A stretch of 64,000 nt of DNA from an uncultured delta proteobacterium (GTDB lineage: Bacteria; Desulfobacterota; Syntrophorhabdia; Syntrophorhabdales; WCHB1-27). The notes beneath the pieces were generated by a model that was not told where the DNA came from, did not search any database, and was given only the letters and a program-made list of their open reading frames with translations. Within the stretch, counting starts at the first letter, position 1; each line of letters opens with the position of its first letter. The stretch is from contig CAWIGL010000002.1 in the NCBI GenBank assembly GCA_963835595.1, positions 2,534,459 to 2,598,458 on the forward strand, written 5' to 3'. A program made the translations under genes and the position numbers. Shown piece after piece: positions 6,854 to 47,000 of the stretch.

Positions 6854-7138
6854 ATGCTGTGGATGGAAATGATCCGTCTGAGAACGACGAAGTCTCAAGT
6901 GGAGGCAGTCGCCCGCCTGATCCTTGACAATGTCAGGCAGGCGGCCGGCGAATCGGGCCTCCTTCGGGTCCATATGTACCACAGTGCGAAATATCGGGCA
7001 GACCTGGCGCTCAGTCTTATGTGGGAGACCAATGCGATGCAAAACGAAGGGAGCAGGACCGGTCTGAGCATAAGCGAGGCGCTCAAGAATTTCGGCCTTG
7101 TCGAGCACTCGATATGGATGGAGAAGGAGGCGACGTGA
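6854..7138 (+). CDS. Small ABM-like (dimeric alpha+beta barrel, antibiotic-biosynthesis-monooxygenase-like) protein, about 90 aa; start uncertain (alternatives at 6863 and 6869)
   Basis: Pattern ...GESGLLRVHMYHS...ADLALSLMWETNA...FGLVEHSIW resembles the ABM fold signature (..GCLRYELHRD...FVLYEVWES..); no strong SD. Confidence 0.35.
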   Translation: MLWMEMIRLRTTKSQVEAVARLILDNVRQAAGESGLLRVHMYHSAKYRADLALSLMWETNAMQNEGSRTGLSISEALKNFGLVEHSIWMEKEAT

Positions 7139-7172
7139 GCAAAAGCACTGTTGCGGGGATTGGGAGCGCTTA

Positions 7173-9908: not shown

Positions 9909-9965
9909 GGCGGTCCGGGCAGACCGTGTCCTGCGGATCAGTATTTATTATAAGGAGGCAGTGAG

Positions 9966-10616
9966 ATGAAGAGTCCCACACCTGCACCATACAGCTATTC
10001 CGGCGCCAGCGCCCGTCCCTCGCTCCTTTACGAAGTGAGGAAGGTGCTGAAGTACCAGTCTGAGCTGAACCCGGAGTTCGGCAAGGACGTAGCCCAGAAG
10101 GCCCACGGGGAGAACCTCTTCGCGTGCATACAGTGCGGCACATGCTCAGGCACCTGCCCGGTGAGCCATTATATGGACTACACGCCGAGGAGGATCATCG
10201 CGATGGTCCGCTCAGGGTTCGAGGAAGAGGTCCTGGCGAGCTCGACCATCTGGCTTTGCGCCTCCTGCTACCAGTGCACGGTAGATTGCCCGAAGCAGAT
10301 CAAGATTACGGATATCATGTACGCCCTGAAGCAGAAGGCTATAGCGCGCCACGTCTATCCGGCCAAGTTCCCCATACCCATCATGGCCGAGGAGTTCTAC
10401 AAGAACGTTGCGAAGAACGGCAGGAACTCGGAAGGCGCCCTCATGATAAACATGGCGCGCAGGACGAGCATCTTCAATCTCTTCAAGTACACGCGCCTCG
10501 GGATGAAGCTCTTTATGACGGGCAGGATGGCCCTCAGGGAGGAGGGCATAGAGAACAAGGCGCAGCTCCGCACGCTTCTGCGGGGCGTAGAAAAGGCTGA
10601 GGAGGAAGCGAGATGA
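9966..10616 (+). CDS. hdrC: Heterodisulfide reductase subunit C-like (two 4Fe-4S ferredoxin motifs)
   Basis: CIQCGTCSGTCP and CASCYQCTVDCP motifs; 216 aa; AAGGAGG RBS; directly upstream of hdrB. Confidence 0.8.
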   Translation: MKSPTPAPYSYSGASARPSLLYEVRKVLKYQSELNPEFGKDVAQKAHGENLFACIQCGTCSGTCPVSHYMDYTPRRIIAMVRSGFEEEVLASSTIWLCASCYQCTVDCPKQIKITDIMYALKQKAIARHVYPAKFPIPIMAEEFYKNVAKNGRNSEGALMINMARRTSIFNLFKYTRLGMKLFMTGRMALREEGIENKAQLRTLLRGVEKAEEEAR

Positions 10617-11494
10617 AGTATCTCTATTATCCAGGCTGTTCCCTGAAGAGCACCGGCAAGCCTTACGAGGAATCGCTGAAGGCGGTCTTCTCCGCGCTCA
10701 ACGTCCCCCTCGAAGAGCTTCGGGACTGGAATTGCTGCGGCGCCACTGCCTACATGGCCGTAGACGAGGTGAAGTCCTTCGCCCTCTCCGCGCGCAACCT
10801 GGCCCTTGCTGAGAAGCAGGGCGAGCCGGCGGAAAACGGCCATGTCCAGCTCGTCGCCCCATGTTCCGCCTGCTATGCCCTCCACCTGAAGACCCAGCAC
10901 TACCTTGACGAGAAGGAGGACATAAGGAAGAAGGTCGAGCGGGGGCTGAAAGAGGCGTCTCTCACCTATGAGGGAAGGGTCGATGTGCGCCATCCCCTCG
11001 ACGTGCTGGTGAACGACATCGGGACCGAAAAGATAAAAGAGGCGGTAAAATCGCCCCTCGGAAACAAGGTGGCGTGCTACTACGGCTGCCAGATCGTCAG
11101 GCCGTATGCGACGTTCGACAACCAGGCAAGCCCGACCAGCCTCGATAAGCTGATGCAGGCCATAGGGGCCACGCCCGTAGAATGGGCCATGAAGACGCGC
11201 TGCTGCGGCGGCACGCTCGTCGGCACGATCAGGGAGGTCGGCTTCCGTCTCAACTATCTCATCCTCAAGGAGGCGGAGAGGAAGGGGGCCGATACCCTGG
11301 CCACTACCTGCCCCTTGTGCCAGTTCGGTCTGGAATGTTTTCAGCCCGACGTGAACGCCAGCTGGCAGGCGAGCTTCCATACCCCTGTCGTCTACTTTAC
11401 GCAGTTGTTGGGGCTGGCCCTCGGCATCCCGGAGAAAAAGCTAGGTATGCAACGGCTCTTCGTGCCGTACAAGAAGGCTCAAATAGGAGGTTAG
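10613..11494 (+). CDS. hdrB: Heterodisulfide reductase subunit B-like (two CCG cysteine-rich domains)
   Basis: NCCGATAY...CYYGCQ and TRCCGGT...CPLCQF motifs; ATGA start/stop overlap with hdrC. Confidence 0.85.
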   Translation: MKYLYYPGCSLKSTGKPYEESLKAVFSALNVPLEELRDWNCCGATAYMAVDEVKSFALSARNLALAEKQGEPAENGHVQLVAPCSACYALHLKTQHYLDEKEDIRKKVERGLKEASLTYEGRVDVRHPLDVLVNDIGTEKIKEAVKSPLGNKVACYYGCQIVRPYATFDNQASPTSLDKLMQAIGATPVEWAMKTRCCGGTLVGTIREVGFRLNYLILKEAERKGADTLATTCPLCQFGLECFQPDVNASWQASFHTPVVYFTQLLGLALGIPEKKLGMQRLFVPYKKAQIGG

Positions 11495-11497
11495 CGA

Positions 11498-13486
11498 ATG
11501 GCAGCGAACGGACTACCAAAAGTAGGGGTCTACCTATGCGACTGCGGCACGAACATCGCCGCCACAGTCGACGTGCCGGCAGTGGTGGAATTTGCTTCCA
11601 CCCTCCCCGGCGTAGTAGTCGCCCGGGAATATAAATACATCTGCTCGGAGCCGGGGCAGCAGTTGATCCAGCAGGACATCAAGGAAAAGAACCTTGAGAG
11701 GGTCGTTGTCGCTTCCTGCTCGCCAAGGATGCACGAGCCGACATTCCAGGCGGCCGTGGCGAAGGCGGGCCTTAACCCCTTCTATTTCGCTATGGTCAAC
11801 ATCAGGGAGCACGTCTCGTGGGTCGTCAAAGACAAGGACCTGGCCACCGCCAAGGCGAAGAGGCTCCTTCGGGCCGCGGTGGGAAGGGTCGTCCTCCAGG
11901 AAGAGCTTTTCTCCCGGACGGACCCGGTCACCCCGGCCGCGATGGTGGTGGGCGGAGGCATCGCCGGCATCCAGTCGGCGCTGACGATCGCCGACGCGGG
12001 CTACAAGATCTACCTCGTCGAGCGCAACCCCTCGATCGGCGGCCATATGGCCCAGCTCGACAAAACGTTCCCGACGCTAGACTGTAGCACCTGAATCCTC
12101 GGCCCCAAGATGATGGATGCCGGTCGGCATCCGAACATCACCCTGCTGACGAATAGCGAAGTGACGAATGTCTCGGGCTACGTGGGTAATTACAAGGTAA
12201 GCGTAAAGAAGAAGCCGCGCTATATCAAGGAGGAGCTTTGTGTGGGCTGCCTCCAGTGCATAGACGGCTGCACCTATAAAGAGGCGAAGTTCGCCGACGA
12301 GTTCCAGATGGGCCTCGGCAAGCGCAAGCCCATCTACCTGCCCTTCCCCCAGGCGACCCCCCAGGTCGTGCTCATCGACCCGGACCGCTGCATCCAGTTG
12401 AAGACGGGGAAATGCAAAAAGACCTGTGCGGAGGCCTGCGACAGGAAGGCCATCGACTTCGACCAGAAAGAAGAGACCATCGAGGTCGATGTGGGCGCCA
12501 TTGTCGTCTCGACGGGCTTCGAGACCTTCGACGCGGCGAGGCTCCCGCAGTACGGCTACGGCGTTTATCCGAACGTCTATACGGGCCTCGAAGTCGAGAG
12601 GCTTACGAGCGCTTCCGGGCCTACCGGCGGCGAAGTGGTCCTGCGGGACGGCAGCCACCCGAAGAGCGTCGGCATCGTCCACTGCGTCGGCTCCCGCGAC
12701 GAGAAGACGAACCGCTGGTGCTCAAGGGTCTGCTGTATGTATTCGTTGAAGCTGGCCCACATGGTTAAGGACCACACGGGCGCCGACGTCTATAATTTCT
12801 ACATCGATATGCGCACCCCCGGAAAGAGCTACGAGGAGTTCTACGACAAGCTCCTCTCCGAGGGCGTCAATTTCGTCCGTGGCCGCGTAGCCGAGGTTAC
12901 CGACTGGGCGATAAGGCCGGAGGAGGAAGGGAAGCTCGTGATCCGGGTGGAAGATACCCTCGTCGGCGTGGTGAGAAGGATTCCCGTCGATATGGTCATC
13001 CTTTCCACGGGTCTCCAGCCCCAGGCGGACGCCGGTGCAGTGGCGTCGATGTTCGGCATAAGCCGGACCGCGGACGGCTTCTTCGCGGAGGCCCATCCGA
13101 AGCTGCGGCCGGTCGAGACGAATACCGACGGGGTCTATCTTGCGGGCTGCGCCCAGGGGCCCAGGGACGTGCCCGATACGGTCGCCCATGCAGGGGCGGC
13201 CGCGTCGATGGTCATCGGTCTTCTCAACAGGGGACAGGTGACCATATCGCCGACAGTGGCCGCGGTAGATGAGAAGCTATGCTCCGCCTGCAAGACGTGC
13301 CTCTCCGTCTGCCCGTACCAGGCGATCAGCTTCGACGCCGGGAAGAAGGTGGCGGGCGTCAACGAAGCCCTGTGCAAGGGGTGCGGCACCTGCGTGGCTG
13401 CCTGCCCTGCGGGGGCAATCACGGGCCGCCATTTCTCGGACGAGCAGATCGTTGCCCAGATAGAAGGGCTTCTCAAAACTGCTTAA
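11498..13486 (+). CDS. hdrA: Heterodisulfide reductase subunit A-like flavoprotein with an in-frame TGA (12092-12094) read as selenocysteine; 662 aa
   Basis: FAD motif VVGGGIAGIQSAL; the two ORF-track pieces (11498-12094, 12110-13486) share one frame, split only by TGA inside FPTLDCST-U-ILGPKMM (Cys in non-Sec HdrA: DCSMCILAPKM); several 4Fe-4S Cys clusters downstream. Confidence 0.8.
12108..12139 (+). other. SECIS-like stem-loop 13 nt downstream of the hdrA UGA (GAUG[AUG]GAUGCC-GGUC-GGCAUC[CGAA]CAUC)
   Basis: Two-tier hairpin, apical loop GGUC, at the spacing of bacterial SECIS elements. Confidence 0.4.
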
Positions 13487-13495
13487 AGGAGCACG

Positions 13496-13930
13496 ATGAT
13501 GAACTTTGAACCAAAAATAATCGCCTTCCTCTGCAATTGGTGCACTTACACCGCAGCCGATGCGGCAGGCGTCGCCCGTATGGAGCAGCCGGCGAACGTG
13601 GACGTAATCCGCGTCATGTGCACGGGCAGGATAGAGCCCATGTTCGTCATGAAGGCTTTTGCCGAAGGGGCGGACGGGGTTATCGTTTCCGGCTGCCATC
13701 CGCCGGGAGACTGCCATTACACGAACGGCAACTTCAAGACCTTCCGCCGTATGCCTCTTTTGGCGACGCTCCTTTCCCAGTTCGGCATCGAGAAGGGGAG
13801 GTTCCACTGGGGCTGGATATCCGGCGCGGAGGCGCCCAAGTGGGCGGAACTTGCCCGGAGCTTCACCGAACAGGTACGCGGCCTGGGGCCACTCGACTGG
13901 AAGGCCCAGCTCGCGAGCAAGGAGGATTAG
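13496..13930 (+). CDS. mvhD: MvhD/FlpD-like iron-sulfur protein (methyl-viologen-reducing hydrogenase delta subunit)
   Basis: MMNFEPKIIAFLCNWCTYTAAD...VMCTGRIEP...VSGCHPPGDCHY, characteristic MvhD Cys pattern. Confidence 0.8.
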   Translation: MMNFEPKIIAFLCNWCTYTAADAAGVARMEQPANVDVIRVMCTGRIEPMFVMKAFAEGADGVIVSGCHPPGDCHYTNGNFKTFRRMPLLATLLSQFGIEKGRFHWGWISGAEAPKWAELARSFTEQVRGLGPLDWKAQLASKED

Positions 13931-13931
13931 C

Positions 13932-14891
13932 ATGGCTGATAAACTGAAGCTCGCCCTCTACTGGGCTGCATCGTGCGGAGGCTGCGAGATCGCCATCGTC
14001 GAGCTGCGCGAGAAGATACTTATCGTCGACCAGGTGGCCGACATTCTCTTCTGGCCGGTCGCTGTAGACACAAAGTATAAGGACGTGGAGGCCATGCCGG
14101 ACGGCCACATCGACGTCTGCCTGTTCAACGGGGCGATCCGCACGAGCGAGAACGAGCACTTGGCCCACCTCCTGCGGAAGAAATCAAAGGTCCTCGTCGC
14201 CTTCGGCTCCTGCGCGAACGAAGGCTGCATGCCCGGCCTGGCGAACCTCTACGACCGGGAGTCGATTTTCAGTTACGCCTATCTGGAATCCCCGTCGGTG
14301 GACAACCCGAACAAGGTCGTCCCCCAGACGCAGAACAAGATGCCCGAAGGGGAGATCGAGATACCCAAGTTCTACCAGACGGTCAAGACGCTTTCTCAGG
14401 TCGTCGATGTAGACTACCACGTACCCGGCTGTCCGCCGCAGGCCCCGCAGATATGGGCGGTGATAGAGGCGATAGTCCAGGGCAAGCTCCCCGCGAAAGG
14501 GAGCGTGGTCGGCGCGAACGACAAGACCGTCTGCGACGAGTGCAAGCACGAGCGCAAGGAGAAGGCGATCAAGAAGTTTTACCGCACCTACGAGATCATC
14601 CCCGAGTCCACGCAGTGCCTCTTCGACCAGGGCCTGATTTGTGCCGGACCGGCTACGAGGGGCGGCTGCGGCGCACTCTGCACGAAGGTCGATGTGCCCT
14701 GCCGGGGCTGCTACGGACCCCCGCCCCATATCGTAGACCAGGGGGCTGCCCTGATGTCTGCCGCGGCGTCCGTGGTGGATGCGGATACGGAAGAGGAGGC
14801 GGCCCGCATCGTGGGCGAGATCGCCGACCCTATAGGGACCTTCTACCGCTTCGGCTTGCCGGCGTCGCTCCTGCACCGGAAGAAGATGTAA
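13932..14891 (+). CDS. mvhG: [NiFe] hydrogenase small subunit (F420-non-reducing / Mvh type)
   Basis: MADKLKLALYWAASCGGCEIA... small-subunit N-terminal Cys motif; real start is internal to ORF-track 13659-14891, preceded by AAGGAGGA. Confidence 0.8.
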   Translation: MADKLKLALYWAASCGGCEIAIVELREKILIVDQVADILFWPVAVDTKYKDVEAMPDGHIDVCLFNGAIRTSENEHLAHLLRKKSKVLVAFGSCANEGCMPGLANLYDRESIFSYAYLESPSVDNPNKVVPQTQNKMPEGEIEIPKFYQTVKTLSQVVDVDYHVPGCPPQAPQIWAVIEAIVQGKLPAKGSVVGANDKTVCDECKHERKEKAIKKFYRTYEIIPESTQCLFDQGLICAGPATRGGCGALCTKVDVPCRGCYGPPPHIVDQGAALMSAAASVVDADTEEEAARIVGEIADPIGTFYRFGLPASLLHRKKM

Positions 14892-14931
14892 TGCGGACGC
14901 AGGGGCCCAAGAAAGTTATAAGGAGAGCGCT

Positions 14932-16395
14932 ATGAAGAAGATAAGCATTGATCCCGTGACCCGGCTCGAAGGACACGGAAGGATAGACCTCTTCCTGGAC
15001 GACCAGGGAGAGGTGGCCAATGCCTATATGGTCATCCCCGAGCTTAGGGGGTTCGAGAAATTCTCCCAGGGGAGGTGCGTCGAGGAATTGACGGACATTA
15101 CCCCCCGCATCTGCGGCGTCTGCCCGGAGGCGCACCATCTCGCCGCCACCAAGGCCACGGACGAGGTTTTCCACGTCGATCCGCCGCCGGCGGCAAAGAA
15201 GCTGAGGGAGCTTTTCTACTCCGCCTTTTATGTAGCGGACCACACGGTCCACTTCTATATCCTGGGCGGGCCCGACTTCGTGATGGGCCCCGACGCCCCC
15301 GTTGCGGAGCGCAACATCCTGGGGGTGATCCATAAGGTAGGGGTGGAGATCGGCTCGAAGGTGATCGAGGCCAGGGGCAAGGCGATGGACGTCATCGGCA
15401 TGTTGGGGGGCAGGAAGATCCATCCCACCTTCGGGATCGCCGGGGGCGTGATGAAGTCCCTCACCGAAGAGGAGAGGAAGCAGGTGGAGCAGACGGCTGC
15501 CGACTCGATAGAGTTCGGCCTGTTCAGCCTGAAGCTCTTCAAGGACATCGTCCTCGCCAACAAGGGCTATCTCGACCTTATAATGTCGCCCATCTTCACC
15601 ATGCCGACGTACTACATGGGCATGGTGGACGACAAGAACAAGGTCAATTTCTACGACGGGAAGATCAGGGTGGTCGATCCCGAAGGGAAGGAGTTCGTAA
15701 AGTACAGCCCCAAGGATTACCTGGAGCACGTGGCGGAGCGCGTCGAGCCCTGGACGTATCTCAAGTTCCCGTATCTGAAGAAGGTGGGCTGGAAGGGCCT
15801 TACCCTGGGCAAGGATTCGGGGGTGTACCAGGCGACGCCGCTCTCCCGCCTCAACGCGTCGGACGGCATGGCTACGCCTAGGGCGCAGGAGGCCTATGAG
15901 GAGATGTTCAAGACGTTCGGCCATAAGCCCGTTCACAATCTCCTGGCTACGCACTGGGCGCGCCTGATCGAGCTTCTCTATGCGGCTGAGCGCCTCCAGG
16001 AGCTCTCCAGGGACCCCGGCATCACAGACCCGAAGGTCCGCAACATACCGACGGAGAAGCCGACGGAAGGCGTAGGCATCGTAGAGGCGCCCAGAGGCAC
16101 CCTTACCCATCACTATATCACCGATGAGAAGGGCATCGTAACGAAGGCGAACCTTATAGTCGGCACGACAAACAACTACGCGCCCATCTCCATCGCCGTG
16201 AAGCAGGCGGCGCAGGGGCTTATCAAGAAGGGCGTCGAGGTGACGGAGGGCATCCTCAACCGCGTGGAAATGGCCTTCCGCCTCTACGACCCGTGCTTCG
16301 GCTGCGCCACGCATACGCTCCCAGGCAGGATGCCGCTCGTCATCAATATCATGGACCCGAATGGAGAGGTAGTGCGGCAGATAAGAAGGGATTAA
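14932..16395 (+). CDS. mvhA: [NiFe] hydrogenase large subunit (Mvh type), Cys rather than Sec at the active site
   Basis: N-terminal RICGVCPEAHH (CxxC) and C-terminal DPCFGCATH (DPCxxCxxH) Ni-Fe ligand motifs; 487 aa. Confidence 0.85.
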   Translation: MKKISIDPVTRLEGHGRIDLFLDDQGEVANAYMVIPELRGFEKFSQGRCVEELTDITPRICGVCPEAHHLAATKATDEVFHVDPPPAAKKLRELFYSAFYVADHTVHFYILGGPDFVMGPDAPVAERNILGVIHKVGVEIGSKVIEARGKAMDVIGMLGGRKIHPTFGIAGGVMKSLTEEERKQVEQTAADSIEFGLFSLKLFKDIVLANKGYLDLIMSPIFTMPTYYMGMVDDKNKVNFYDGKIRVVDPEGKEFVKYSPKDYLEHVAERVEPWTYLKFPYLKKVGWKGLTLGKDSGVYQATPLSRLNASDGMATPRAQEAYEEMFKTFGHKPVHNLLATHWARLIELLYAAERLQELSRDPGITDPKVRNIPTEKPTEGVGIVEAPRGTLTHHYITDEKGIVTKANLIVGTTNNYAPISIAVKQAAQGLIKKGVEVTEGILNRVEMAFRLYDPCFGCATHTLPGRMPLVINIMDPNGEVVRQIRRD

Positions 16396-16846: not shown

Positions 16847-18736
16847 CTACGCCTTGAACCGCATGTCGAGGAGATATTCCGTCTGAAGGGCCTTGCGTTT
16901 GAGGTCGAAGTCCATTTTCTCGAAAAGGCGGAGGGCCGGCTCGTTCTCCTTTGCGATTTTCACGGTGAAGCCGAGCAGTCCGCGCCTGCGGGCGATCCGC
17001 TTGAGATACCAGAGTATCTCGGTGCCGACGCCCAGGTTCCGGCGGCTTTCGCTTACGAGCACCGCGACCTCGGCGGTGTGCCGGTCGTCGCTCATCACGT
17101 ATTTGCCCAGGCCGACAAACGTCTCTCCGCCGTCGCCTTTCAGGAGCGCCAGTATCGCCATCTCACGGGTATAATCGATAAGCCCCGCATCGCCCGGCCC
17201 GGCCGCGGCGTGCAAGAAACTGCGGCAGGCCTCCCCGCCCGTCCCTACCGGCAGGGTGGCCAGGAAGTCCCTGAGCATCGACTCATCGGACGTCTTGACC
17301 GGTCTTAAGAAGACCTCCAGGCCGGTTTTGGTCTTGCGCCTGGCTTCGAGGTGCTCCGGGTAGAGTCCCTTCTTGCCGGGGGCGTAAGCCTGGCTCTCGT
17401 AGACGAGGTTTTGCCGCTTCGCCTCTTCGAGGAGCGCAGGCTGAAAGGCCGGGTGCGCTATGGCGATGAGGGACATGGCCCTTTCCCGGAGGCTCCTCCC
17501 GTGGATGTAGGCTATGCCGTGCTCGGTGATGACGTAGTGTATATCGCCCCGCGTCAGGGTGACGCCCGCCCCTTCTTTCAGGAAAGGCACTATCCTCGAT
17601 ACTGTCCCCTTGCGGGCCGTCGATGGGAGGACCAGGATGCTCTTCCCCTGGGGCGCCATGACCGCGCCCCGCATGAAATCGGCCTGCCCCCCGATGCCGC
17701 TGTAGAACGTCCTGCCGAGGGATTCGGACGTAGCCTGGCCCGTCAGGTCGATCTCGAGGGCGGTATTGATGGCGGTCATGTTGTTTATCCGCGAGATGAC
17801 CGATGGGCTGTTCGTATAGTCTATCGTCTTGAACTCGAAGGTAGGGTTATCGTTTATGTACGCATAGGTCGCTTTCTTGCCCATGCAGAACGCTGCGACG
17901 GTCTTGCCCGTGTCGATGCTCTTCCGCTTGTTGTTGACGACCCCCTTTCGCATCAGGTCCACGATGCCGTCCGGCAGCAGCTCCGTGTGGACCCCGAGGT
18001 CGTGCTTCGTGTTGAGGTACGATATGACCGCCGAAGGTATGCTTCCGTAGCCGACCTGTATCGTATCCCCGTCCTCTACGACGTTGCTCACGTATTTGCC
18101 CATGCGCCTGACGGTTTCGTCGGGAAGGTCCGTCTCGTACTCAAGGAGCGGCTCGTCGTGGGGAAGCAGGAAGTCTACCTGGCCGATATGGACGAAGCTG
18201 TCGCCGTGGACGCGCGGCATGTTCGAGTTGACCTGGGCGATCACGAGCGAGGCGACCTGCACGGCCTCCTTCACTATATCGACGCTGATGCCCAGGCTCA
18301 TGTACCCGTGCTCGTCCGGCGGGGACGTCTGTATGAGGGCGACGTCGATGGGTATCGTGTGGCGTCTGAGCAGGGCGGGCACCTGCGAGAGGAATATGGG
18401 GATATAGTTGGCCTCGCCCTTGTTGACGGCCTCCCGCGTATCCTTGCCGATGAAGAAGGAGCTGCGGCGGAAGTTGCTGCCGAACTTGTTCGAGCTGTAA
18501 GGATCGACGCCGAGCGTCCAGATGTGGAGCGCCTCCGCGTAAGAGAACGTCGTGGGGTGCGACTCGACGTAACGTATCAGCGCCTTCACGAGGTATTGCG
18601 GCTCTCCGCAGGCCGTGCCGATGAAGATCCTGTCGCCCGCCTGGACCTGGCTGAGTATCTGCTCTTCGGCGACAAACTTCTCCGGATAGGTCTTCATCAT
18701 CTTCCGCATAACCGAGCCTTCCTGCCGGCGTTGCAC
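16847..18736 (-). CDS. Acetyl-CoA hydrolase/transferase-family (Cat1/AbfT-like) domain fused to a C-terminal Pat-type GNAT domain (629 aa)
   Basis: First ~470 aa resemble 4-hydroxybutyrate/acetate CoA-transferases; last ~150 aa (IDYTREMAILAL...AEVAVLVSESRRNLGVGTEIL) align with the Pat1/Pat2 GNAT domains (IDYDREMAIVAE...GEFAVVVHDDFHGKGLG). Confidence 0.8.
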   Translation of the reverse strand: MQRRQEGSVMRKMMKTYPEKFVAEEQILSQVQAGDRIFIGTACGEPQYLVKALIRYVESHPTTFSYAEALHIWTLGVDPYSSNKFGSNFRRSSFFIGKDTREAVNKGEANYIPIFLSQVPALLRRHTIPIDVALIQTSPPDEHGYMSLGISVDIVKEAVQVASLVIAQVNSNMPRVHGDSFVHIGQVDFLLPHDEPLLEYETDLPDETVRRMGKYVSNVVEDGDTIQVGYGSIPSAVISYLNTKHDLGVHTELLPDGIVDLMRKGVVNNKRKSIDTGKTVAAFCMGKKATYAYINDNPTFEFKTIDYTNSPSVISRINNMTAINTALEIDLTGQATSESLGRTFYSGIGGQADFMRGAVMAPQGKSILVLPSTARKGTVSRIVPFLKEGAGVTLTRGDIHYVITEHGIAYIHGRSLRERAMSLIAIAHPAFQPALLEEAKRQNLVYESQAYAPGKKGLYPEHLEARRKTKTGLEVFLRPVKTSDESMLRDFLATLPVGTGGEACRSFLHAAAGPGDAGLIDYTREMAILALLKGDGGETFVGLGKYVMSDDRHTAEVAVLVSESRRNLGVGTEILWYLKRIARRRGLLGFTVKIAKENEPALRLFEKMDFDLKRKALQTEYLLDMRFKA

Positions 18737-18771: not shown

Positions 18772-21090
18772 ATGCAGTACCTGAAGTCTACCACCATCCT
18801 ACGCACTTTTGTAGCGGTAATTGAGCCGCCTGGGCCGCGGCGAGAGGCTTTTCCGCCTGCCTTTAAGCATATGGCCGTATGGGCGATAAATATGATTGGA
18901 GATGTAATCCCGATGGGAGACGCCAGGTCACTACAGGAGCACACGCCCGATGCGTTAACGGTGCTCTATGCGGCGGTCTCGGCAGGCCGGCAAGTGCCGG
19001 CGCCGGATAATGTCCCGCCCGCCCGGTCCGCGCACGGGAGGTTGGAAGGTCTCTGCCGGATCGCGGTCGAGAGGGGGGGCAGCGTCGTAAAGAAGGGCGA
19101 CGATTCGATGCTCGCCTGCTTTGCCGACCCGGTCGAAGCGGCAAAGGCGGCGATCAGGATGCAGAAGAGCGCGCCCGGTCAGGAGGGCGGCGAGAGTCCT
19201 TTCGCCATACGCATCGCGCTTCATTGCGGCAGGGGGTACTTCGGCGACGGCGCCGTCCACGGCGATCTCGCCGGTTTTGCCGCAAGGGCCGAGAACGTCG
19301 CAAGGGGCGGCTGCATTTACGTCACCGCCGCCGCCTTCGCCGCACTACGGGAGATGAAGGACGTCGGTCTCAACCAGGTGGATATGCCGCAGGGTGTCCT
19401 TACCGGCGGTTTTACCTTCTACGAGCTTGTTTGGAGCGCGGACACGGACTGCTCGCCCGGTGCTGCGCCGGGCGCTCGCCCCGGCACAGCCGGCGACGTC
19501 CGGTTCTTCGCGCACGGCCAGGCCCTGCTGGAAGGAAGGCACGCGCCGTGTTTTTACTGCGGGACGGGGAAGCACCTTACGACGGATTGCCCGTCGAAGC
19601 ACCTGCCGTACGCAACCCACGGGCTGGCAAGGCTCGGCCGTTTATCGATGGCAGAGATGAACGACCTGTTTGCCCGATATCTTGACGCGGCGGGGGAAAA
19701 ACTTCCCGCGCCCGCGGAAGCGGACGAGGGAGACCCCGCCTATCTTGCCCCCTGGGGCTTCTACGAGCTGAAAAAGGTCTTCCAAATCCGTTTCATGAAC
19801 GTTATATGGAGCGCCTCGCCCAAGGACGACTGGTACAGGGTCAGGGAGAGCGGGAGGGAGACATCGGCCAAGGGAGGCGTCCTCTGGATCGCGCGCGACT
19901 GCATCAGGGCCTCCGACCTCAGTGAGGCCGAGAAGCTCCTGACGCGCTACAGCCGGCAGAATTGGAAAGACTACAGGTCCGCGTGCGGCCTGGCCTTCAT
20001 CAGCGTAGAGCGCGGCGAGTACAGGGCCGCGGGCGATCTTTTCCGGGAGGCCCTCAACCAGGCGGCAAGCCCTGTCCAGAAAACCTATATATACCTTCTT
20101 GTCTCGCGCATCTGCGAGCTTCTCGACAAGCGCGACAAGTCGCTGGAGGCGCTTAAAGAGGCGCTGAGGATCGAGCCTTACTGCCTGGAAGCCAGGTTCG
20201 AGGAGGTAATCCGCCATTTTCAGATGGAGCGGCAGACGGAGGGTCTCAACCGGCTCGCCAAGCTGCTTCAGCTTTCGCATGAATTCTATATCCCTGCCCT
20301 CATCTCCCCTGAATTGTCCGAATTCCGCCCGCTCATTCTGCCCGAGCTCGACAAGCTGAGGGCGCAGGTCCGCGACGAGGCGCTGGAGGCCGCGAAGGAG
20401 GCGGACGGAGATGCCGCCGCCCTCGCGCGCTTTTTGGACGCCGCTGACGCGGACGTGGCGGAGATAATGGCCATGCAGGAGCGCCTCCACGGGCTTTTGG
20501 CCAAACCGGAGGTATTCCTCCTGTGCCGTGACGCATTTCACACTGCAAAGAGGATCACGGCGGACTGCGGCGCAGTCGAGCGTGAGCGCAGGGAGGACGC
20601 CGTGAAAGTCTTGAGGGGCTTGAGGGAGCGCGCCGGGGCGCTGCTCCAGGGCGGGGCAATGGCGGCAAGGATGGCGTTGCGCGTCCGTCCCATCATCGAG
20701 CAGCTCAAGCGTATCGAGGAGGACCTGCGCCGGCGCGAGCCTTTTGCCCGCTGCGTGGACCGGTCCGCGCAGGCATCGCTCGATCTCGACGCGGCCGAAG
20801 AGATAGCGAGACGATGGAAGGAGCGGGCCGAGCTTCTGCACGCCTGCGGCACGTTCTGCAAAGACCTCTGTTTCGTCCTGTTCATTACCGCCGTAACTGG
20901 ATTGGTGCTTTTCCCAGGATTCTTATACTGCCTGGATGCGCTCAACGAGGGATGGGCGCTGTCGTCCGTCGAGCTGTGGCCGGCCCAGAAGTCCGTGCTT
21001 ATCGCCGGTACCGTCCTCGCGGTCGTGCTTGCCTTTGGCCACGCCTTAATGGGCAGGCTCAGGACAGAAGGCGGCGCAAGGCCGAAATAG
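18772..21090 (+). CDS. Multidomain signalling-like protein: degenerate class-III nucleotidyl-cyclase-like domain, CCHC zinc knuckle, TPR-like repeats, coiled coil, two C-terminal TM helices (up to 772 aa; start may be at 18871)
   Basis: KGDDSMLACFADPVEAAKAAIRMQKS...IRIALHCGRGYFGDG...AENVARGGCIYVTAAAF (cyclase fold, first metal-binding Asp apparently lost); CFYCGTGKHLTTDC fits CX2CX4HX4C; hydrophobic C-terminus. Confidence 0.6.
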   Translation: MQYLKSTTILRTFVAVIEPPGPRREAFPPAFKHMAVWAINMIGDVIPMGDARSLQEHTPDALTVLYAAVSAGRQVPAPDNVPPARSAHGRLEGLCRIAVERGGSVVKKGDDSMLACFADPVEAAKAAIRMQKSAPGQEGGESPFAIRIALHCGRGYFGDGAVHGDLAGFAARAENVARGGCIYVTAAAFAALREMKDVGLNQVDMPQGVLTGGFTFYELVWSADTDCSPGAAPGARPGTAGDVRFFAHGQALLEGRHAPCFYCGTGKHLTTDCPSKHLPYATHGLARLGRLSMAEMNDLFARYLDAAGEKLPAPAEADEGDPAYLAPWGFYELKKVFQIRFMNVIWSASPKDDWYRVRESGRETSAKGGVLWIARDCIRASDLSEAEKLLTRYSRQNWKDYRSACGLAFISVERGEYRAAGDLFREALNQAASPVQKTYIYLLVSRICELLDKRDKSLEALKEALRIEPYCLEARFEEVIRHFQMERQTEGLNRLAKLLQLSHEFYIPALISPELSEFRPLILPELDKLRAQVRDEALEAAKEADGDAAALARFLDAADADVAEIMAMQERLHGLLAKPEVFLLCRDAFHTAKRITADCGAVERERREDAVKVLRGLRERAGALLQGGAMAARMALRVRPIIEQLKRIEEDLRRREPFARCVDRSAQASLDLDAAEEIARRWKERAELLHACGTFCKDLCFVLFITAVTGLVLFPGFLYCLDALNEGWALSSVELWPAQKSVLIAGTVLAVVLAFGHALMGRLRTEGGARPK

Positions 21091-22001: not shown

Positions 22002-25000
22002 ATGAACCGGAACCTCTTCCCTTTAAGGGCCATTTTTCACAGAAGCGCGCTCACGAAAAAGGGCGCCGGCGAGGATGCGCCGCTGCGGTCTGACCTTTTC
22101 AGCGCTTCTCAGATGGAACAACACGGCAGGACCCTTGCGGCCCTGCACGCCGTGGGCGAGGATCATGCCCCGGAGAGGTTGTTGGCAAGGCTTGCTGCAA
22201 ACGAAGCCGTCCTTCTTGAAGTCCGCGACATAGTGGCTGAGGCCGTGAAGGCAAGCCGCAGGATTACCCCGGCCGGAGAATGGCTGCTCGACAACTTCTA
22301 TCTTATCGAAGAACAAATCAGGACGGCGAAAAGGCTGCTGCCGAAGGGGTACGCCAAGGGGCTGCCCCGCCTCAAAGACGGCCCGTCCAAGGGTCTTCCC
22401 CGCGTATATGATGTCGCCCTTGAGACGATTTCCCACGGCGATGGCCGGGTGGACCCGGAGGGCCTCGAAAGCTTCGTCGCCGCCTATCAGACGGTTACCA
22501 CGTTGCGGTTGGGCGAGCTATGGGCGATTCCCATCATGCTGCGTCTGGCATTGATCGAGAACCTCAGAAGGGTTGCAACGCGGATCGCCACCGACAGGAT
22601 CGACCGGAACTTCGCCGATTACTGGGCCGATAAAATAACGGAGACGGCAGAAACTGACCCGAAGAGTTTGATCCTGACAGTTGCCGACATGGCCAGGTCA
22701 AACCCGCCGATGGTCAGTTCCTTTGTTGCGGAGTTTACCCGTCGCCTCCAGGGACACGGCGCCCCACTTGCGCTCCCCCTTACCTGGATCGAGCAGCAGC
22801 TTTCCGGGTCGTACCTGACCATAGAACAGATGGTGCAATCGGAAAACCAGCAACAGGCGGCCGACCAGCTTTCCATGAGCAACAGCATCGGAAGCCTGCG
22901 CTTCCTTTCCGCCATGGACTGGCGCGAATTCGTCGAACGGATGAGCACCGTCGAGCGGACCCTGCGGGAGGACCCTGCCGGAGCCTATGGCAAAATGGCT
23001 TTTACCACCCGTGATCGCTACCGTCATGTCGTGGAGGAGATAACAAAGAAGAGCGGACTCGCCGAAGACGAGGTGGCCCGTCTCGCGATCGGTCTCGCCG
23101 GGGAAGCTGCAAACGGAACAAACGGCGATAACCGGGCGAGACACGTGGGTTACTACCTCATCGATGGGGGACTGCCAAAGCTCGAAGCCCGCGTCCGGGT
23201 CAGGTCGTCCGTCACCGACATGATTCGAAACATGGGTCGGAGATTTTCCCTGCCGGTCTATCTTGGCTCGATCCTCTCACTGGTGCTTATTTTCGCCGCA
23301 GGCATGGTCGCAGAGACCGCATCCAGCGGCATACGCGGCTCTCTGTTGTGGATCGTCGGCGTGCTCTCGCTCTTCTCGGTAAGCTCACTCGCGATAGCAC
23401 TGGTCAACCTTTTCACGACGCGTCTTGTCACACCCCATCCTCTGCCGCGAATGGACTTCTCCAAGGGGATTCCTCCCGAATCGTCTACCCTGGTCGTGGT
23501 CCCGACCATGCTGACGAGCCCTGAGAATATCGGCCATCTCGCCGACGCCCTGGAAGTCCGGTTTCTGGCAAACCGGGACGATAACCTCCGCTTTGGCCTG
23601 CTTACCGACTTCCGGGACGCCCCCGAGGAAGAGCCGACCGGGGACGAAGCACTCCTGCTACTGGCCCGGCAAAGCATAGAAGCGTTGAATGACAAATACA
23701 ATGGCCCGGCCGGCGATCTCTTTTTCCTGTTTCACCGCTCCCGTCAATGGAACCGGCAGGAACAAGCCTGGATGGGCTACGAGAGGAAGCGGGGGAAGCT
23801 CGCGGAACTGAATGCGCTTCTGCGCGGAGGAGCAGGCGCCGGATTCTCTCTCGTAGTCGGCAATACCAAAGACCTGTCGAACGTCAGATACGTCATCACC
23901 CTCGACACGGACACGGAGCTTCCGCGCGATTCCGCGCGGCAGCTCGCGGGGGCAATGGCCCATCCCCTCAATCTTCCCCTCTACGATGCGGATAAAGGGC
24001 GCATCGTGGCCGGATACGGCATTCTTCAGCCACGGGTGGCGATAAGCCTGACCGGCACCGACCGGTCGCGCTATGCCCGCATGTGGGGGAGCGATGCCGG
24101 CATCGATCCCTACACCCGTGTGGTCTCCGATGTCTACCAGGACCTCTTCGGCGAAGGCTCGTTCATCGGCAAGGGCATCTACGACGTTGACGCCTTCGAG
24201 CGGGTGCTCAAAGGACGTTTACCCGAGAACCTTATTCTGAGCCATGACCTCATCGAAGGGTGTTACGTGCGCTCGGGACTCATCAGCGACGTGCAGTTGT
24301 TTGAGGAGTACCCGTCACGGTACGGCGCGGACGTAAGCCGCCGCCGCCGCTGGATTCGGGGCGATTGGCAGGTTCTCAGGTGGCTCTTCCCCGGCGTTCC
24401 CGGCCTCAATGCCCGCTTCCGGAAGAACCCGCTCACCCCGTTGTCGCGCTGGAAGATACTCGACAACCTTCGGCGCAGTCTCGTGTCGCCGGCATTGACG
24501 CTTCTCGCGCTGGCCGGTTGGTGTGCGCTGCCGTCCCCCTGGTTCTGGGCTGCATCGATCATTGCTATCGTGCTGATCCCTTCCCTGATTGGCTCCCTCG
24601 TGGAGATCCTGAAAAAGCCTGACGACGTGCTCATGGGCCAACACCTCGCCGGTGCGGTCCGGTCCGCCGGCAGAAGCGTCACCCAGGCGATCTTCGTGCT
24701 CCTCTGCCTGCCTCATGAGGCATTCTTCGGCGGGGCCGCGATTCTGCACACCCTGTGGCAGATGCTGGTTTCAGGCAGGGGTCTTTTGGAATGGAACCCT
24801 TCAGGGGAAGCGGAGCGGGCGAGCCGGACGGATCTTGCCGGGTCCTGGCTGGCCATGTGGATCGCGCCGGTCATCGCCGCTGCGACGGCGGGGTATCTCC
24901 TGCATGCACGGCCTGTCGCACTGACCGCGGCTCTGCCGATCTTAAGCCTGTGGTTTATCTCTCCGGTTATCGCCTGGTGGATCAGTAAGCCCCTCCGTCC

Positions 25001-28000: not shown

Positions 28001-29144
28001 CTTCGTAAGGCCCGCCGACCAGATAGCCGAGGAAGACCGCCTTCTCTTCCAGGCCGTCGCACGGGCCGTCATCAGCGACAGCCGGGGAACGCTCGCGGAA
28101 CAGATGGACCGTCGAGGTCCTGCGGAGCCGACAGTTCCCGCCCTGGCTCCGACCCGCACGCATCGCCCCATCCCTCCCGCCATTGCGCCCATGCCGCGAG
28201 AGGACCTGGTATTCTTCAACGGGATAGGGGGATTCACGCCGGACGGCCGGGAGTATGTCATTTCAACCGGCCATGATCAGGTCACACCGGCGCCGTGGGT
28301 AAACGTGCTGGCAAACCCTTTTCTTGGGACCGTTGTCTCCGAGAGCGGTTCTGCCTACACGTGGAGCGAGAATGCCCACGAGTTCCGCCTCACCCCCTGG
28401 CACAACGATCCCGTGAGCGATTCCGGAGGGGAGGCATTCTACATTCGCGACGAAGAACGCGGTCATTTCTGGTCTCCGATGCCGTTTCCCGCCAGGGGCG
28501 CCACGCCTTACGTCACCCGGCACGGGTTCGGCTACTCGGTGTTCGAGCATACCGAGCGTGGAGTCAGCTCCGAGGCGTGGGTGTACGTGGCCATGGACGC
28601 ACCCGTCAAATTCACCGTCCTGAAGGTGCGCAATCGTTCGGGCCGGAGCAGGCGGCTATCCGTGACCGGATATGCGGAATGGGTACTGGGAGATGTGCGG
28701 CCGAAATCAGTCATGCACATCATCACGGAGGTTGACCCTCAAACGGGCGCGCTCCTGGCGCGCAATCCCTACAATACGGAATTCGGCAATCGGGTTACCT
28801 TTTTCAACGTGAACCACGCCACCCGAACCGTGAGCGGCGACCGGACCGAGTTCCTTGGCCGCAACGGCGACCTCGGCCACCCCGCCGCCATGAGCCGGTC
28901 ACGGCTTTCCGGGAGGGTCGGGGCCGCGCTCGATCCATGCGGCGCGATGCAAGTGGCCTTTGATCTCGAAGACGGAGAAGAACGGGAGGTCATCTTCACC
29001 CTCGGCTCGGCGCAGAGTAGCCGACGACGCAGCCGGTCTCGCCAGTCGCTTCCGCGACTCCGTTGCGGCAAGAGAGGCACTCGATGGAGTGTGGCGCTAC
29101 TGGAACCGGACGCTCGGCGCAGTCCGGGTGGAAACACCGGATGA
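22002..29144 (+). CDS. Cyclic beta-1,2-glucan synthase (Cgs/NdvB/ChvB)-like giant protein: N-terminal membrane GT84-type glycosyltransferase region plus start of the GH94 phosphorylase-like region (2380-aa intact ORF)
   Basis: TM clusters near aa 420-480 and 800-1000; TLDTDTELP DxD motif; size and topology match Cgs. Homology leaves this frame at about 29018 and continues in shifted frames to 30624. Confidence 0.75.
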
Positions 29145-37161: not shown

Positions 37162-37235
37162 TGCCCCCGGCGTGACTCGAACACGCGGCACCAGGATTAG
37201 GAATCCTGTGCTCTATCCACCTGAGCTACGGGGGC
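37162..37235 (-). tRNA. tRNA-Arg (anticodon CCT), 74 nt, no encoded CCA, followed by a T-run
   Basis: Cloverleaf: acceptor GCCCCCG/CGGGGGC, D-arm GCTC-AGGTGGATA-GAGC, anticodon arm CAGGA-TTCCTAA-TCCTG, variable GTGCC, T-arm GCGTG-TTCGAGT-CACGC, discriminator A. Confidence 0.85.
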
Positions 37236-46779: not shown

Positions 46780-46973
46780 GGCTCTATTATACAGGTTTAT
46801 GCGGATGGGTGCAATGTGTGTGGTCTCCGGGGTGGATAGGTGGGGGCGATCGTATACTGGATGGTTATGGGTAGCTGGGCTCGCGCCTGTTCAGAATCGC
46901 GCTATGCGGCGCCCTGCTCAACGTATGGCCTCCGATGTACGTACAGTACAGTCTCCCAACCTTGATTTTTATC

Positions 46974-47000
46974 TTGACAGCGTTTTTGAGAGAGTATAAT
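46974..47000 (+). promoter_or_regulatory. Sigma-70-like promoter TTGACA-15nt-TATAAT for the acyl-CoA dehydrogenase gene
   Basis: Canonical hexamers in a low-GC stretch 70-95 nt upstream of ATG 47070. Confidence 0.45.

What the first reader, a model, noticed from the sequence alone, without database searches (positions are those of the whole stretch)
16847..18736. Acetyl-CoA hydrolase/transferase domain fused to a Pat-type GNAT: an alternative donor-generating module
In Pat the GNAT is fused to an inactive or regulatory NDP-forming ACS-like domain. Here the same GNAT type is fused to a Cat1/AbfT-like CoA-transferase domain, which could make the acyl-CoA donor in situ from a free acid plus acetyl/succinyl-CoA. 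To my knowledge no enzyme of this architecture has been biochemically characterised, though similar fusions are annotated in databases. It is a candidate for non-acetyl (e.g. succinyl/butyryl/propionyl) protein acylation in a fatty-acid/organic-acid-metabolising anaerobe.
Basis: partly seen in the sequence, partly recalled or inferred. Interest (0 to 1): 0.55.

Follow-up and report, generated by a model that had tools for sequence, protein, structure and literature searches.

The report
CoA-transferase fused to Pat-type acetyltransferase
This gene encodes a widespread but unstudied protein in which a 4-hydroxybutyrate-type CoA-transferase is joined to the protein-acetylating module of the regulator Pat, making it most likely a new architectural type of metabolic protein acetyltransferase in anaerobic bacteria and archaea.

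Summary
Window 16847-18736 (minus strand) is one ORF of 629 aa, or 620 aa from the ATG at 18709. It has AcetylCoA_hydro and AcetylCoA_hyd_C domains that are 38-54% identical to solved 4-hydroxybutyrate CoA-transferases, followed by a GNAT domain that aligns specifically with the Pat/PatZ catalytic module.

The CoA-transferase nucleophile (E243, matching AbfT E238) and the GIGGQ loop are intact. So are the GNAT general base (E547, matching PatZ E809) and its P-loop. Both domains are under purifying selection.

The fusion is not rare. At least 587 species-level genomes from many anaerobic bacterial and archaeal phyla encode it. I found no paper describing it.

In 24 of 62 informative loci it heads an operon with an ADP-forming acyl-CoA synthetase and a Pta-N-terminal-like protein. 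That operon is absent here.

In more distant fused relatives the CoA-transferase Glu is replaced in about 40% of clusters, while the GNAT motifs persist. Some relatives also carry a histone-deacetylase-type domain. This favours a Pat-like protein acetyltransferase whose partner domain senses or scaffolds, and here probably still catalyses. It does not favour an obligatory donor-generating module. Function remains inferred.

The parts
16847..18736 (-). Whole ORF (629 aa from GTG 18736; probable start ATG 18709 gives 620 aa; stop codon at 16847-16849)
   Evidence: full-length homologues
18152..18703 (-). AcetylCoA_hydro (PF02550), the N-terminal half of the CoA-transferase
   Evidence: E 1.6e-46; coordinates checked
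18596..18616 (-). Family-specific invariant motif T-A-C-G-E-P-Q (residues 32-38). It differs from stand-alone 4-hydroxybutyrate CoA-transferases and was used as the scan pattern for related loci.
17981..17989 (-). H241-T242-E243. E243 (codon 17981-17983) is the CoA-transferase nucleophile and aligns with E238 of C. aminobutyricum AbfT (3gk7).
   Evidence: alignment; invariant in A1
17684..17698 (-). G338-I-G-G-Q342, the GxGG(Q) loop of the CoA-transferase active site
17420..17881 (-). AcetylCoA_hyd_C (PF13336), the C-terminal half of the CoA-transferase
   Evidence: E 2.7e-61
16850..17362 (-). Pat-type module: conserved lead-in 'YPEHLE...LRPVKTSDE' plus the GNAT domain (residues 450-620)
   Evidence: PatZ 710-865; window Pat 766-922; Pfam
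17177..17266 (-). GNAT alpha1-alpha2 segment, equivalent to the PatZ gating motif V746-T763. In the target clade it is divergent and shortened.
   Evidence: PMC12184503
17069..17071 (-). E547, the GNAT general base. It aligns with PatZ E809 and SlPatA E123.
   Evidence: for the role of E809
17024..17041 (-). R-N-L-G-V-G, the acetyl-CoA pyrophosphate-binding P-loop (Q/R-x-x-G-x-G/A). It aligns with PatZ G822-G824.

Best explanation
The gene encodes a two-module protein of a large uncharacterised family. A class I CoA-transferase of the 4-hydroxybutyrate/butyryl-CoA:acetate type is joined through a conserved linker to the catalytic module of Pat-type protein lysine acetyltransferases. The most likely working model is a Pat-like regulator of acyl-CoA metabolism. 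The GNAT uses acetyl-CoA, and possibly other short acyl-CoAs, to acylate lysines of target enzymes. By analogy with Pat these targets would be AMP-forming acyl-CoA synthetases. [quoted passage not shown] In the target's subfamily this domain is probably still an active CoA-transferase at the acetate/acyl-CoA node. In other genomes it is co-transcribed with an ADP-forming acyl-CoA synthetase that makes ATP from acetyl-CoA. Acetylating the ATP-consuming AMP-forming synthetases would then prevent a futile cycle. Shown here: the architecture, the intact motifs, purifying selection, the distribution and the operon context. Inferred: protein substrates, coupling between the domains, and physiological role.
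For: Both catalytic centres are intact. E243 aligns with AbfT E238 and the GIGGQ loop is present. E547 aligns with PatZ E809 and the P-loop with PatZ G822-G824. The CoA-transferase residues (E243, G338/G340/G341) are invariant and E547 is at least 90% conserved in 61 family members. dN/dS is 0.07-0.11 for the CoA-transferase and 0.10-0.17 for the GNAT core. The GNAT plus lead-in is specifically Pat-like. In 71 distant fused representatives the CoA-transferase nucleophile is lost in 29, while the GNAT general base is Glu or Asp in 66 and the P-loop is kept in nearly all. This is the same pattern as Pat's inactive ACS-like domain (PMC8556138). Two relatives add a Hist_deacetyl domain after the GNAT (P0173, P0177; E 1e-79 and 3e-85). 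Both are internal genes on contigs of 22.9 and 18.8 kb. A writer-eraser fusion of this kind points to reversible acetylation. In 24 of 62 loci an ADP-forming acyl-CoA synthetase lies immediately downstream, and 22 of these also have an AAA_26-DRTGG protein. Eight loci have an acetoacetate-CoA ligase nearby. That enzyme class is, to my knowledge, a Pat substrate in Streptomyces.
Against: No biochemical or genetic data exist for any member, and no protein substrate is identified. In this window the ACD/DRTGG operon is absent and the gene stands alone, convergent with a hydrogenase cluster. The target clade's GNAT alpha1-alpha2 (gating) segment is only 21% identical to the family consensus, and its dN/dS is 0.28-0.54. 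Its substrate recognition may therefore differ or be weakened. The invariance of the CoA-transferase site in the main family would also fit a purely metabolic enzyme carrying an accessory GNAT. Loss of the Glu also occurs in 15 of 63 stand-alone homologues, mostly as Gly, so Glu loss is not unique to fusions. The AlphaFold model is only moderate (pLDDT 76.8), and the inter-domain geometry could not be inspected.
Confidence: 0.5

Rival explanations
1. The CoA-transferase makes a non-acetyl acyl-CoA (butyryl-, propionyl-, succinyl- or 4-hydroxybutyryl-CoA) from a free acid plus acetyl-CoA and hands it to the fused GNAT. The protein would then be a dedicated non-acetyl protein acylase.
For: Both active sites are intact and invariant in the target's subfamily. 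The linker is conserved at 71% pairwise identity, with invariant G445, G448, Y450 and P451, which is compatible with a fixed inter-domain geometry. Family-specific invariant residues lie near the predicted acyl pocket (T32, C34-Q38, E59, W64) and suggest a defined acid substrate.
Against: In the wider fused superfamily 29 of 71 representatives lack the nucleophile Glu but keep the GNAT motifs. Donor synthesis therefore cannot be the general reason for the fusion. Nothing tested here shows channelling. The acyl-CoA produced would be freely diffusible, and the cell already contains such CoA esters. The GNAT is closest to acetyl-CoA-using Pat enzymes.
Confidence: 0.15
2. Cis or partner regulation. 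The GNAT acetylates its own CoA-transferase domain, or the co-encoded ADP-forming acyl-CoA synthetase, giving acetyl-CoA-dependent feedback on that enzyme rather than control of AMP-forming synthetases.
For: There is tight genetic linkage with an ACD that retains its catalytic His motif (28 of 31 have SHTG[SA]) in 24 of 62 loci. Pat itself is a GNAT fused to an ACD-like domain. The two Pat-like proteins in this window still carry the ACD His motif.
Against: No ACD is adjacent in this window. Branches without the Glu would have no enzyme activity left to regulate in cis. To my knowledge there is no precedent for ACD acetylation.
Confidence: 0.13
3. Simple bifunctional fusion without regulatory meaning. 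It would be an ordinary short-chain CoA-transferase carrying a GNAT that acetylates a small molecule or a protein N-terminus (RimI/RimJ-like, as JGI annotations say).
For: Database names are generic, for example 'acyl-CoA hydrolase/RimJ/RimL family protein N-acetyltransferase' and 'GNAT family N-acetyltransferase'. There are weak NCBIfam hits to RimI, ArsN1 and AAC(3). The CoA-transferase is more conserved than the GNAT.
Against: The best structural and sequence matches of the GNAT are Pat enzymes over the whole module, including the Pat-specific lead-in. The RimI and ArsN hits are far below their cutoffs. Fusions with an HDAC-type deacetylase exist. The GNAT persists in branches where the CoA-transferase site is lost.
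Confidence: 0.12
4. In the target too, the CoA-transferase domain is only a ligand sensor, despite its intact motifs, and carries out no physiologically relevant CoA transfer.
For: There is the analogy with Pat and with the fused relatives that lack the Glu. The gene is solitary in this genome.
Against: E243, H241, G338, G340 and G341, plus many other active-site-region residues, are invariant across 61 sequences spanning bacteria and archaea. dN/dS is 0.07-0.11. The main family co-occurs in an operon with ACD.
Confidence: 0.1

Closest known systems
Pat/PatZ (type I) and SlPatA (type II) GNAT protein lysine acetyltransferases
   Same: The C-terminal 170 aa align with the PatZ catalytic module (residues 710-865). 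This covers the YP..LE..LRP..DE lead-in, the general base (E809 matching E547) and the P-loop (G822-G824 matching G560-G562). Identity to a canonical Pat in the same window is 27% over 157 aa. In both, a large N-terminal CoA-ester-enzyme-derived domain precedes the GNAT. In distant relatives that domain has lost its catalytic residue, as it has in Pat.
   Different: The partner domain is a class I CoA-transferase (PF02550/PF13336), not an NDP-forming acyl-CoA-synthetase-like domain. In the target it keeps its catalytic residues. The gating-motif segment is divergent in the target clade. The architecture is not among the five GNAT KAT types listed in reviews.
4-hydroxybutyrate CoA-transferases (AbfT/Cat2; PDB 3gk7, 3eh7, 2oas, 9vag) and Yersinia pestis RipA
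   Same: Residues 7-436 align end to end (E 5e-125 to 1e-83). Foldseek gives target-normalised TM-scores of 0.86-0.90. The catalytic Glu and the GxGGQ loop are conserved.
   Different: The target carries an extra 180-aa Pat-type module. Family-specific invariant residues (T32, C34-Q38, E59, W64, C275) replace those of the stand-alone enzymes. It scores far below the NCBIfam equivalog cutoffs for butyryl-CoA:acetate CoA-transferase (275.8 against 674.8), so substrate specificity is unknown.
AcuABC system of Bacillus subtilis (GNAT AcuA with HDAC-type deacetylase AcuC controlling AcsA); comparison from my own knowledge and the review PMC8556138
   Same: It pairs a GNAT writer with a Hist_deacetyl-family eraser that acts on an acyl-CoA synthetase. 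Relatives P0173 and P0177 fuse such a deacetylase domain to the CoA-transferase-GNAT scaffold.
   Different: The target itself has no deacetylase domain, and none is encoded nearby. AcuA is a stand-alone GNAT of a different subfamily.

Membership tests
Acetyl-CoA hydrolase/transferase family, 4-hydroxybutyrate CoA-transferase (AbfT/Cat2) branch of class I CoA-transferases | Both Pfam domains (PF02550 and PF13336) above the gathering score | tested here: met
   159.2 and 206.5 bits against cutoffs of 24 and 23.7
Acetyl-CoA hydrolase/transferase family, 4-hydroxybutyrate CoA-transferase (AbfT/Cat2) branch of class I CoA-transferases | Fold of the two-lobed CoA-transferase | tested here: met
   Foldseek to 3gk7, 3eh7 and 2oas gives E 4e-46 to 3e-44 and target-normalised TM-scores of 0.86-0.90. 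The model pLDDT is 76.8.
Acetyl-CoA hydrolase/transferase family, 4-hydroxybutyrate CoA-transferase (AbfT/Cat2) branch of class I CoA-transferases | Nucleophilic glutamate that forms the acyl-anhydride and CoA-thioester intermediates (AbfT E238) | tested here: met
   E243 aligns with E238 of 3gk7 and is invariant in 61 family members.
Acetyl-CoA hydrolase/transferase family, 4-hydroxybutyrate CoA-transferase (AbfT/Cat2) branch of class I CoA-transferases | GxGG(Q/A) loop | tested here: met
   GIGGQ at 338-342 aligns with G(V/F/T)GGQ of the solved enzymes. G338, G340 and G341 are invariant.
Acetyl-CoA hydrolase/transferase family, 4-hydroxybutyrate CoA-transferase (AbfT/Cat2) branch of class I CoA-transferases | Function-specific (equivalog) score for butyryl-CoA:acetate or succinyl-CoA:acetate CoA-transferase | tested here: not met
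   TIGR03948 scores 275.8 against a cutoff of 674.8, NF053666 scores 130 against 740, and NF053853 scores 111.8 against 500.
Acetyl-CoA hydrolase/transferase family, 4-hydroxybutyrate CoA-transferase (AbfT/Cat2) branch of class I CoA-transferases | Measured CoA-transfer activity and acid specificity | not testable with these tools
   This needs recombinant enzyme assays.
Pat-type GNAT protein lysine acetyltransferases (types I/II) | GNAT domain with the acetyl-CoA P-loop Q/R-x-x-G-x-G/A | tested here: met
   Acetyltransf_1 scores 43.9 bits against 20.7. R557-N-L-G-V-G562 aligns with PatZ G822-G824.
Pat-type GNAT protein lysine acetyltransferases (types I/II) | General-base glutamate (PatZ E809, SlPatA E123) | tested here: met
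   E547 aligns with both. The role of E809 is described in PMC12184503.
Pat-type GNAT protein lysine acetyltransferases (types I/II) | Specific similarity of the whole catalytic module, including the lead-in before beta1 | tested here: met
   PatZ is the best PDB hit for the GNAT region (E 4e-8, residues 710-865). BLASTP to the window Pat 766-922 gives E 1e-13.
Pat-type GNAT protein lysine acetyltransferases (types I/II) | Conserved alpha1-alpha2 gating or substrate segment (PatZ V746-T763) | tested here: not met
   The main fusion family keeps a Pat-like 'S..S.Y(K/R)RF.S' segment. The target clade has a shortened, Gly-rich, divergent segment that is 21% identical to the family.
Pat-type GNAT protein lysine acetyltransferases (types I/II) | Regulatory domain homologous to an NDP-forming acyl-CoA synthetase | tested here: not met
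   The N-terminal 440 aa are a CoA-transferase. There are no CoA_binding, Succ_CoA_lig or ATP-grasp_5 hits, unlike window 54-2723 and 7098-9908.
Pat-type GNAT protein lysine acetyltransferases (types I/II) | Acetylation of the active-site lysine of AMP-forming acyl-CoA synthetases | not testable with these tools
   There is only indirect context: acetoacetate-CoA ligase genes lie near the fusion gene in 8 of 80 loci.
Uncharacterised CoA-transferase~GNAT fusion family (database names: 'GNAT family N-acetyltransferase', 'acyl-CoA hydrolase/RimJ/RimL family protein N-acetyltransferase') | Colinear full-length similarity with both domains and the conserved linker | tested here: met
   Identity is 59-93% at 99-100% coverage to the 120 best hits. 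Identity is 56-63% to 80 genome loci.
Uncharacterised CoA-transferase~GNAT fusion family (database names: 'GNAT family N-acetyltransferase', 'acyl-CoA hydrolase/RimJ/RimL family protein N-acetyltransferase') | Operon with an ADP-forming acyl-CoA synthetase and an AAA_26-DRTGG protein (present in about 39% of informative loci, so frequent but not universal) | tested here: not met
   In the window and in its 80-93% relatives, the gene downstream is a convergent NiFe hydrogenase large subunit.

The most novel reading that the evidence does not exclude
The CoA-transferase domain acts as a catalytic sensor. Its covalent state (free Glu, acyl-anhydride or Glu-CoA thioester) would report the cellular ratio of acyl-CoA to free acid, and would gate or feed the fused Pat-type GNAT. 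On this reading the family is a sixth, previously unrecognised class of prokaryotic lysine acyltransferase that couples the short-chain-acid/CoA-ester pool directly to protein acylation in anaerobes and archaea, including acetoclastic Methanotrichaceae. Branches that lost catalysis, or that gained a deacetylase or an Fe-S domain, would be derived regulators.
Probability: 0.2. Interest if true: 0.75.

Novelty: new variant of a known kind. Interest (0 to 1): 0.5.

Why it matters
Current classifications of prokaryotic GNAT lysine acetyltransferases list five domain types, and none has a CoA-transferase partner. This family is found in at least 587 species-level genomes across many anaerobic phyla of Bacteria and Archaea. 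It includes syntrophs, sulfate reducers, Methanotrichaceae and ANME-related archaea, where acyl-CoA pools and energy margins are critical. Its main clade is unusually conserved, at about 60% identity across the two domains of life. If the protein is a Pat-like regulator, it would give a concrete enzymatic route for regulated, as opposed to purely chemical, protein acylation in these organisms. It would also offer a natural series of active, inactive, deacetylase-fused and Fe-S-fused variants for studying how metabolic enzymes are recruited as sensor domains.

Tried and rejected
- **Assembly or frameshift artefact:** rejected. Hundreds of colinear homologues exist, and dN/dS is well below 1 in both domains.
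- **Divergent GNAT alpha1-alpha2 segment as a local frameshift:** rejected. Relatives P0001-P0004 share it with graded divergence.
- **'Stand-alone' 59%-identical CoA-transferase P0124 as a split version of the fusion:** rejected. The gene runs off the contig end.
- **Literature searches:** six searches for any description of the fusion or its operon found none. One search failed on term syntax.
- **Gene neighbourhoods of four distant fused relatives:** no recurrent partner was found.
- **The 772-aa divergent neighbour:** no Pfam or NCBIfam assignment.
- **AFDB fold search:** unavailable. The inter-domain geometry of the AlphaFold model could not be inspected with the tools.
- **Rfam scan of the window:** only one tRNA was found.
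Full report
**Observation**

The stated coordinates hold a single ORF on the minus strand, 16847..18736, of 629 aa from a GTG start. An ATG at 18709 with a GGAAGG Shine-Dalgarno-like sequence 7 nt upstream gives 620 aa. Residue numbers below use this 620-aa form. The codon-position GC pattern is that of the neighbouring genes.

Pfam finds three domains:
- AcetylCoA_hydro, E 1.6e-46.
- AcetylCoA_hyd_C, E 2.7e-61.
- Acetyltransf_1, E 3.3e-11, above its gathering score.

The fusion is genuine. All 120 best hits among 5.8 billion proteins are colinear proteins of 614-648 aa at 59-93% identity and 99-100% coverage. A scan of one genome per species found at least 587 genomes encoding a relative.

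**The CoA-transferase part**

Residues 7-436 align end to end with solved 4-hydroxybutyrate CoA-transferases: 9vag at E 5e-125, then 3eh7, 2oas and 3gk7. They align more weakly with Y. pestis RipA and only distantly with AarC/Cat1-type enzymes. The AlphaFold model (pLDDT 76.8) superposes on these structures with target-normalised TM-scores of 0.86-0.90.

E243 aligns with E238 of C. aminobutyricum AbfT. To my knowledge E238 is the catalytic nucleophile. GIGGQ 338-342 aligns with the GxGGQ loop. In an alignment of 61 family members, H241, E243, G338, G340 and G341 are invariant.

No function-specific NCBIfam model is reached. Butyryl-CoA:acetate CoA-transferase scores 275.8 against a cutoff of 674.8, so the acid substrate is unknown. 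The family has its own invariant residues (T32, C34-G-E-P-Q38, E59, W64, C275) where stand-alone enzymes differ.

**The GNAT part**

The best solved-structure match of residues 450-603 is E. coli PatZ residues 710-865 (E 4e-8). Next is the GNAT domain of Streptomyces lividans PatA. The alignment includes:
- the lead-in YPEHLE..LRPVKTSDE against PatZ YPHQLE..FRPILPEDE;
- E547 against the catalytic E809 of PatZ and E123 of SlPatA;
- G560-V-G562 against the PatZ P-loop G822-G824 (roles from PMC12184503).

The same module aligns with a canonical Pat encoded 7 kb away in the window (27% identity over 157 aa, E 1e-13). 'Pat-type GNAT' is therefore justified.

There is one peculiarity. In the target and its four closest relatives (73-93% identity), the alpha1-alpha2 segment that corresponds to the PatZ gating motif is shortened and only 21% identical to the otherwise well-conserved family consensus. 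It is not a frameshift. dN/dS there is 0.28-0.54, compared with 0.10-0.17 in the GNAT core and 0.07-0.11 in the CoA-transferase. Both domains are thus maintained by selection, but substrate recognition in this clade may have changed.

**Distribution and context**

The main family is about 56-63% identical across many lineages. Bacterial carriers include Deltaproteobacteria/Thermodesulfobacteriota, Syntrophorhabdus, Nitrospirota, Planctomycetota, Spirochaetota, Dehalococcoidia, Bacillota, Thermotogae and Bipolaricaulota. Archaeal carriers include Methanotrichaceae, Thermoplasmatota and Theionarchaea; ANME-related Methanoperedenaceae and Methanophagales appear among the protein hits.

I clustered the ORFs of 80 loci:
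- In 24 of the 62 loci with enough downstream sequence, the next gene on the same strand is an ADP-forming acyl-CoA synthetase. 28 of 31 of these keep the SHTG[SA] phospho-histidine motif.
- 22 of those 24 loci continue with an AAA_26-DRTGG protein that resembles the regulatory N-terminus of class II phosphotransacetylase.
- A DRTGG-only protein of unknown function is also linked to pta-ack in Desulfovibrio (PMC4481167). The operon therefore looks like an acetyl-CoA-to-acetate, ATP-yielding module.
- Eight loci have an AMP-forming acetoacetate-CoA ligase nearby.

In this window, and in its 80-93% relatives, that operon is absent. The gene is convergent with a cluster made up of an ACD~GNAT gene, hdrCBA, mvhD and NiFe hydrogenase genes. 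It is divergent from a conserved hypothetical gene of about 725 aa.

**The wider superfamily**

A search of 1.84 billion 50%-identity representatives returned 71 further full-length fusions among the best 150 hits, 32-55% identical to the target, and 63 stand-alone homologues.

| Group | Nucleophile position | Other motifs |
|---|---|---|
| 71 fused representatives | Glu 42, Asp 14, other 15 | GxGG loop often decayed where Glu is lost. GNAT general base is Glu or Asp in 66. P-loop kept in nearly all. |
| 63 stand-alone homologues | Glu 48, Gly 12, Asp 2, other 1 | GxGGQ intact in the Gly subgroup. |

Unusual-length relatives add further domains:
- P0173 and P0177 carry CoA-transferase-like, GNAT and Hist_deacetyl domains (E 1e-79 and 3e-85). 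Both lack the nucleophile Glu, and both are internal genes on contigs of 22.9 and 18.8 kb.
- P0125 and P0129 carry an N-terminal 4Fe-4S region.

**Interpretation**

The constant element of the superfamily is a Pat-type acetyltransferase. The CoA-transferase domain can lose catalysis, as the ACS-like domain of Pat has done (PMC8556138), and a deacetylase can be appended. This points to reversible protein acetylation, with the CoA-transferase domain acting as an acyl-CoA-binding sensor or scaffold.

In the target's subfamily the transferase site is invariant and the gene often sits in an operon with ACD, so the domain is probably also an active enzyme. A plausible logic, which is inference, runs as follows. 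The protein works at the acetate/acyl-CoA node, and its GNAT switches off AMP-forming synthetases while ACD is making ATP, which avoids a futile cycle.

It has no direct support, and it cannot explain the Glu-less fusions.

**Novelty**

Reviews and the 2025 PatZ structure paper list five GNAT KAT architectures, none with a CoA-transferase domain. Six full-text searches found no description of this fusion. Databases name it only generically and inconsistently.

I rate it a new variant of a known kind: a Pat-like KAT with a different partner domain. Interest is moderate, because the architecture is visible in domain databases and all functional claims are inferred.

Noticed in passing
window 54-2723 (+) and 7098-9908 (+): Two further Pat-type proteins (ACD-like CoA_binding, Succ_CoA_lig, Ligase_CoA_2 and ATP-grasp_5 domains plus GNAT; 889 and 936 aa) lie within 19 kb of the target. 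Reviews describe the ACS-like domain of Pat as inactive because it lacks a catalytic histidine (PMC8556138). These two keep the ACD phospho-histidine motif ('RTHTGQ' and 'RSHTGS'). That makes three Pat-type GNAT fusions in one neighbourhood, all with apparently intact partner enzymes.
   Followed up: partly
window 11498-13486 (+), stop codon at 12092-12094: The HdrA-like gene is split into ORFs of 198 and 458 aa by an in-frame TGA in the context 'DCST*ILGPK'. The same 198+458 split is called in relatives L081-L083. This is probably a selenocysteine codon rather than a disruption.
   Followed up: partly
window 7098-16395 (+); L081:11886-21127: The ACD~GNAT (Pat-like) gene sits 58 bp upstream of hdrC-hdrB-hdrA-mvhD and the NiFe small and large subunit genes, downstream of a divergent sigma-54 activator. 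This order is conserved in relatives whose fusion protein is 80% identical. A protein acetyltransferase apparently leading an Hdr/Mvh operon is unusual.
   Followed up: partly
window 18772-21090 (+): A 772-aa ORF lies divergent from the target. Its true start is probably about 45 codons later, since relatives have 724-727 aa. It has a coding-like GC pattern and no Pfam or NCBIfam family, only faint TPR hits. It contains a CxxC...C..H knuckle-like motif and C-terminal hydrophobic helices. It is conserved as the divergent neighbour in L081-L084.
   Followed up: partly
L086:8001-11042 (P0173) and L092:2122-4989 (P0177): These are triple fusions of a CoA-transferase-like domain (nucleophile Glu replaced by Asp or Gly), a GNAT and a histone-deacetylase-family domain. 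An acetylation writer and eraser sit on one polypeptide.
   Followed up: partly
L087:1340-4243 (P0125); also P0129: These relatives of about 960 aa carry an N-terminal 4Fe-4S cluster region in front of a Glu-less CoA-transferase domain and a GNAT. They may be redox-sensing variants.
   Followed up: no
for example L006:8001-13039 and L014:8001-13030 (24 loci in all): A three-gene operon is conserved across distant bacterial and archaeal phyla: the CoA-transferase~GNAT gene, an ADP-forming acyl-CoA synthetase, and an AAA_26-DRTGG (Pta N-terminal-like) protein.
   Followed up: yes
L019, L073 (Methanotrichaceae); L037, L043 (Dehalococcoidales): There are two copies of the fusion gene side by side or within 3 kb. 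In the Dehalococcoidales loci a DUF3795 gene lies between them or next to them.
   Followed up: no
stand-alone homologues such as P0185, P0206, P0219, P0226: 12 of 63 stand-alone 4-hydroxybutyrate-CoA-transferase-like representatives have Gly (HSG or HTG) in place of the catalytic Glu but keep an intact GxGGQ loop. This subgroup presumably has altered chemistry or no CoA-transfer activity.
   Followed up: no
window 22002-29144 (+) and 29947-30624 (+): A 2380-aa GT2 and GH94 protein (cyclic beta-1,2-glucan synthase-like) is followed, after an 800-bp gap, by a separate ORF carrying the C-terminal part of the GH94 catalytic domain. This could be a frameshift, a split gene or a sequencing error.
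   Followed up: no
window 46000-56000: This stretch has lower GC (0.52-0.56, against about 0.60 elsewhere), and few ORFs show the genome's typical GC3. It includes a truncated UbiD-like ORF (49822-50520) overlapping another ORF (49074-49892). It may be foreign or degraded DNA.
   Followed up: no
window 37162-37235 (-): This single tRNA gene is the only Rfam match in the window.
   Followed up: no
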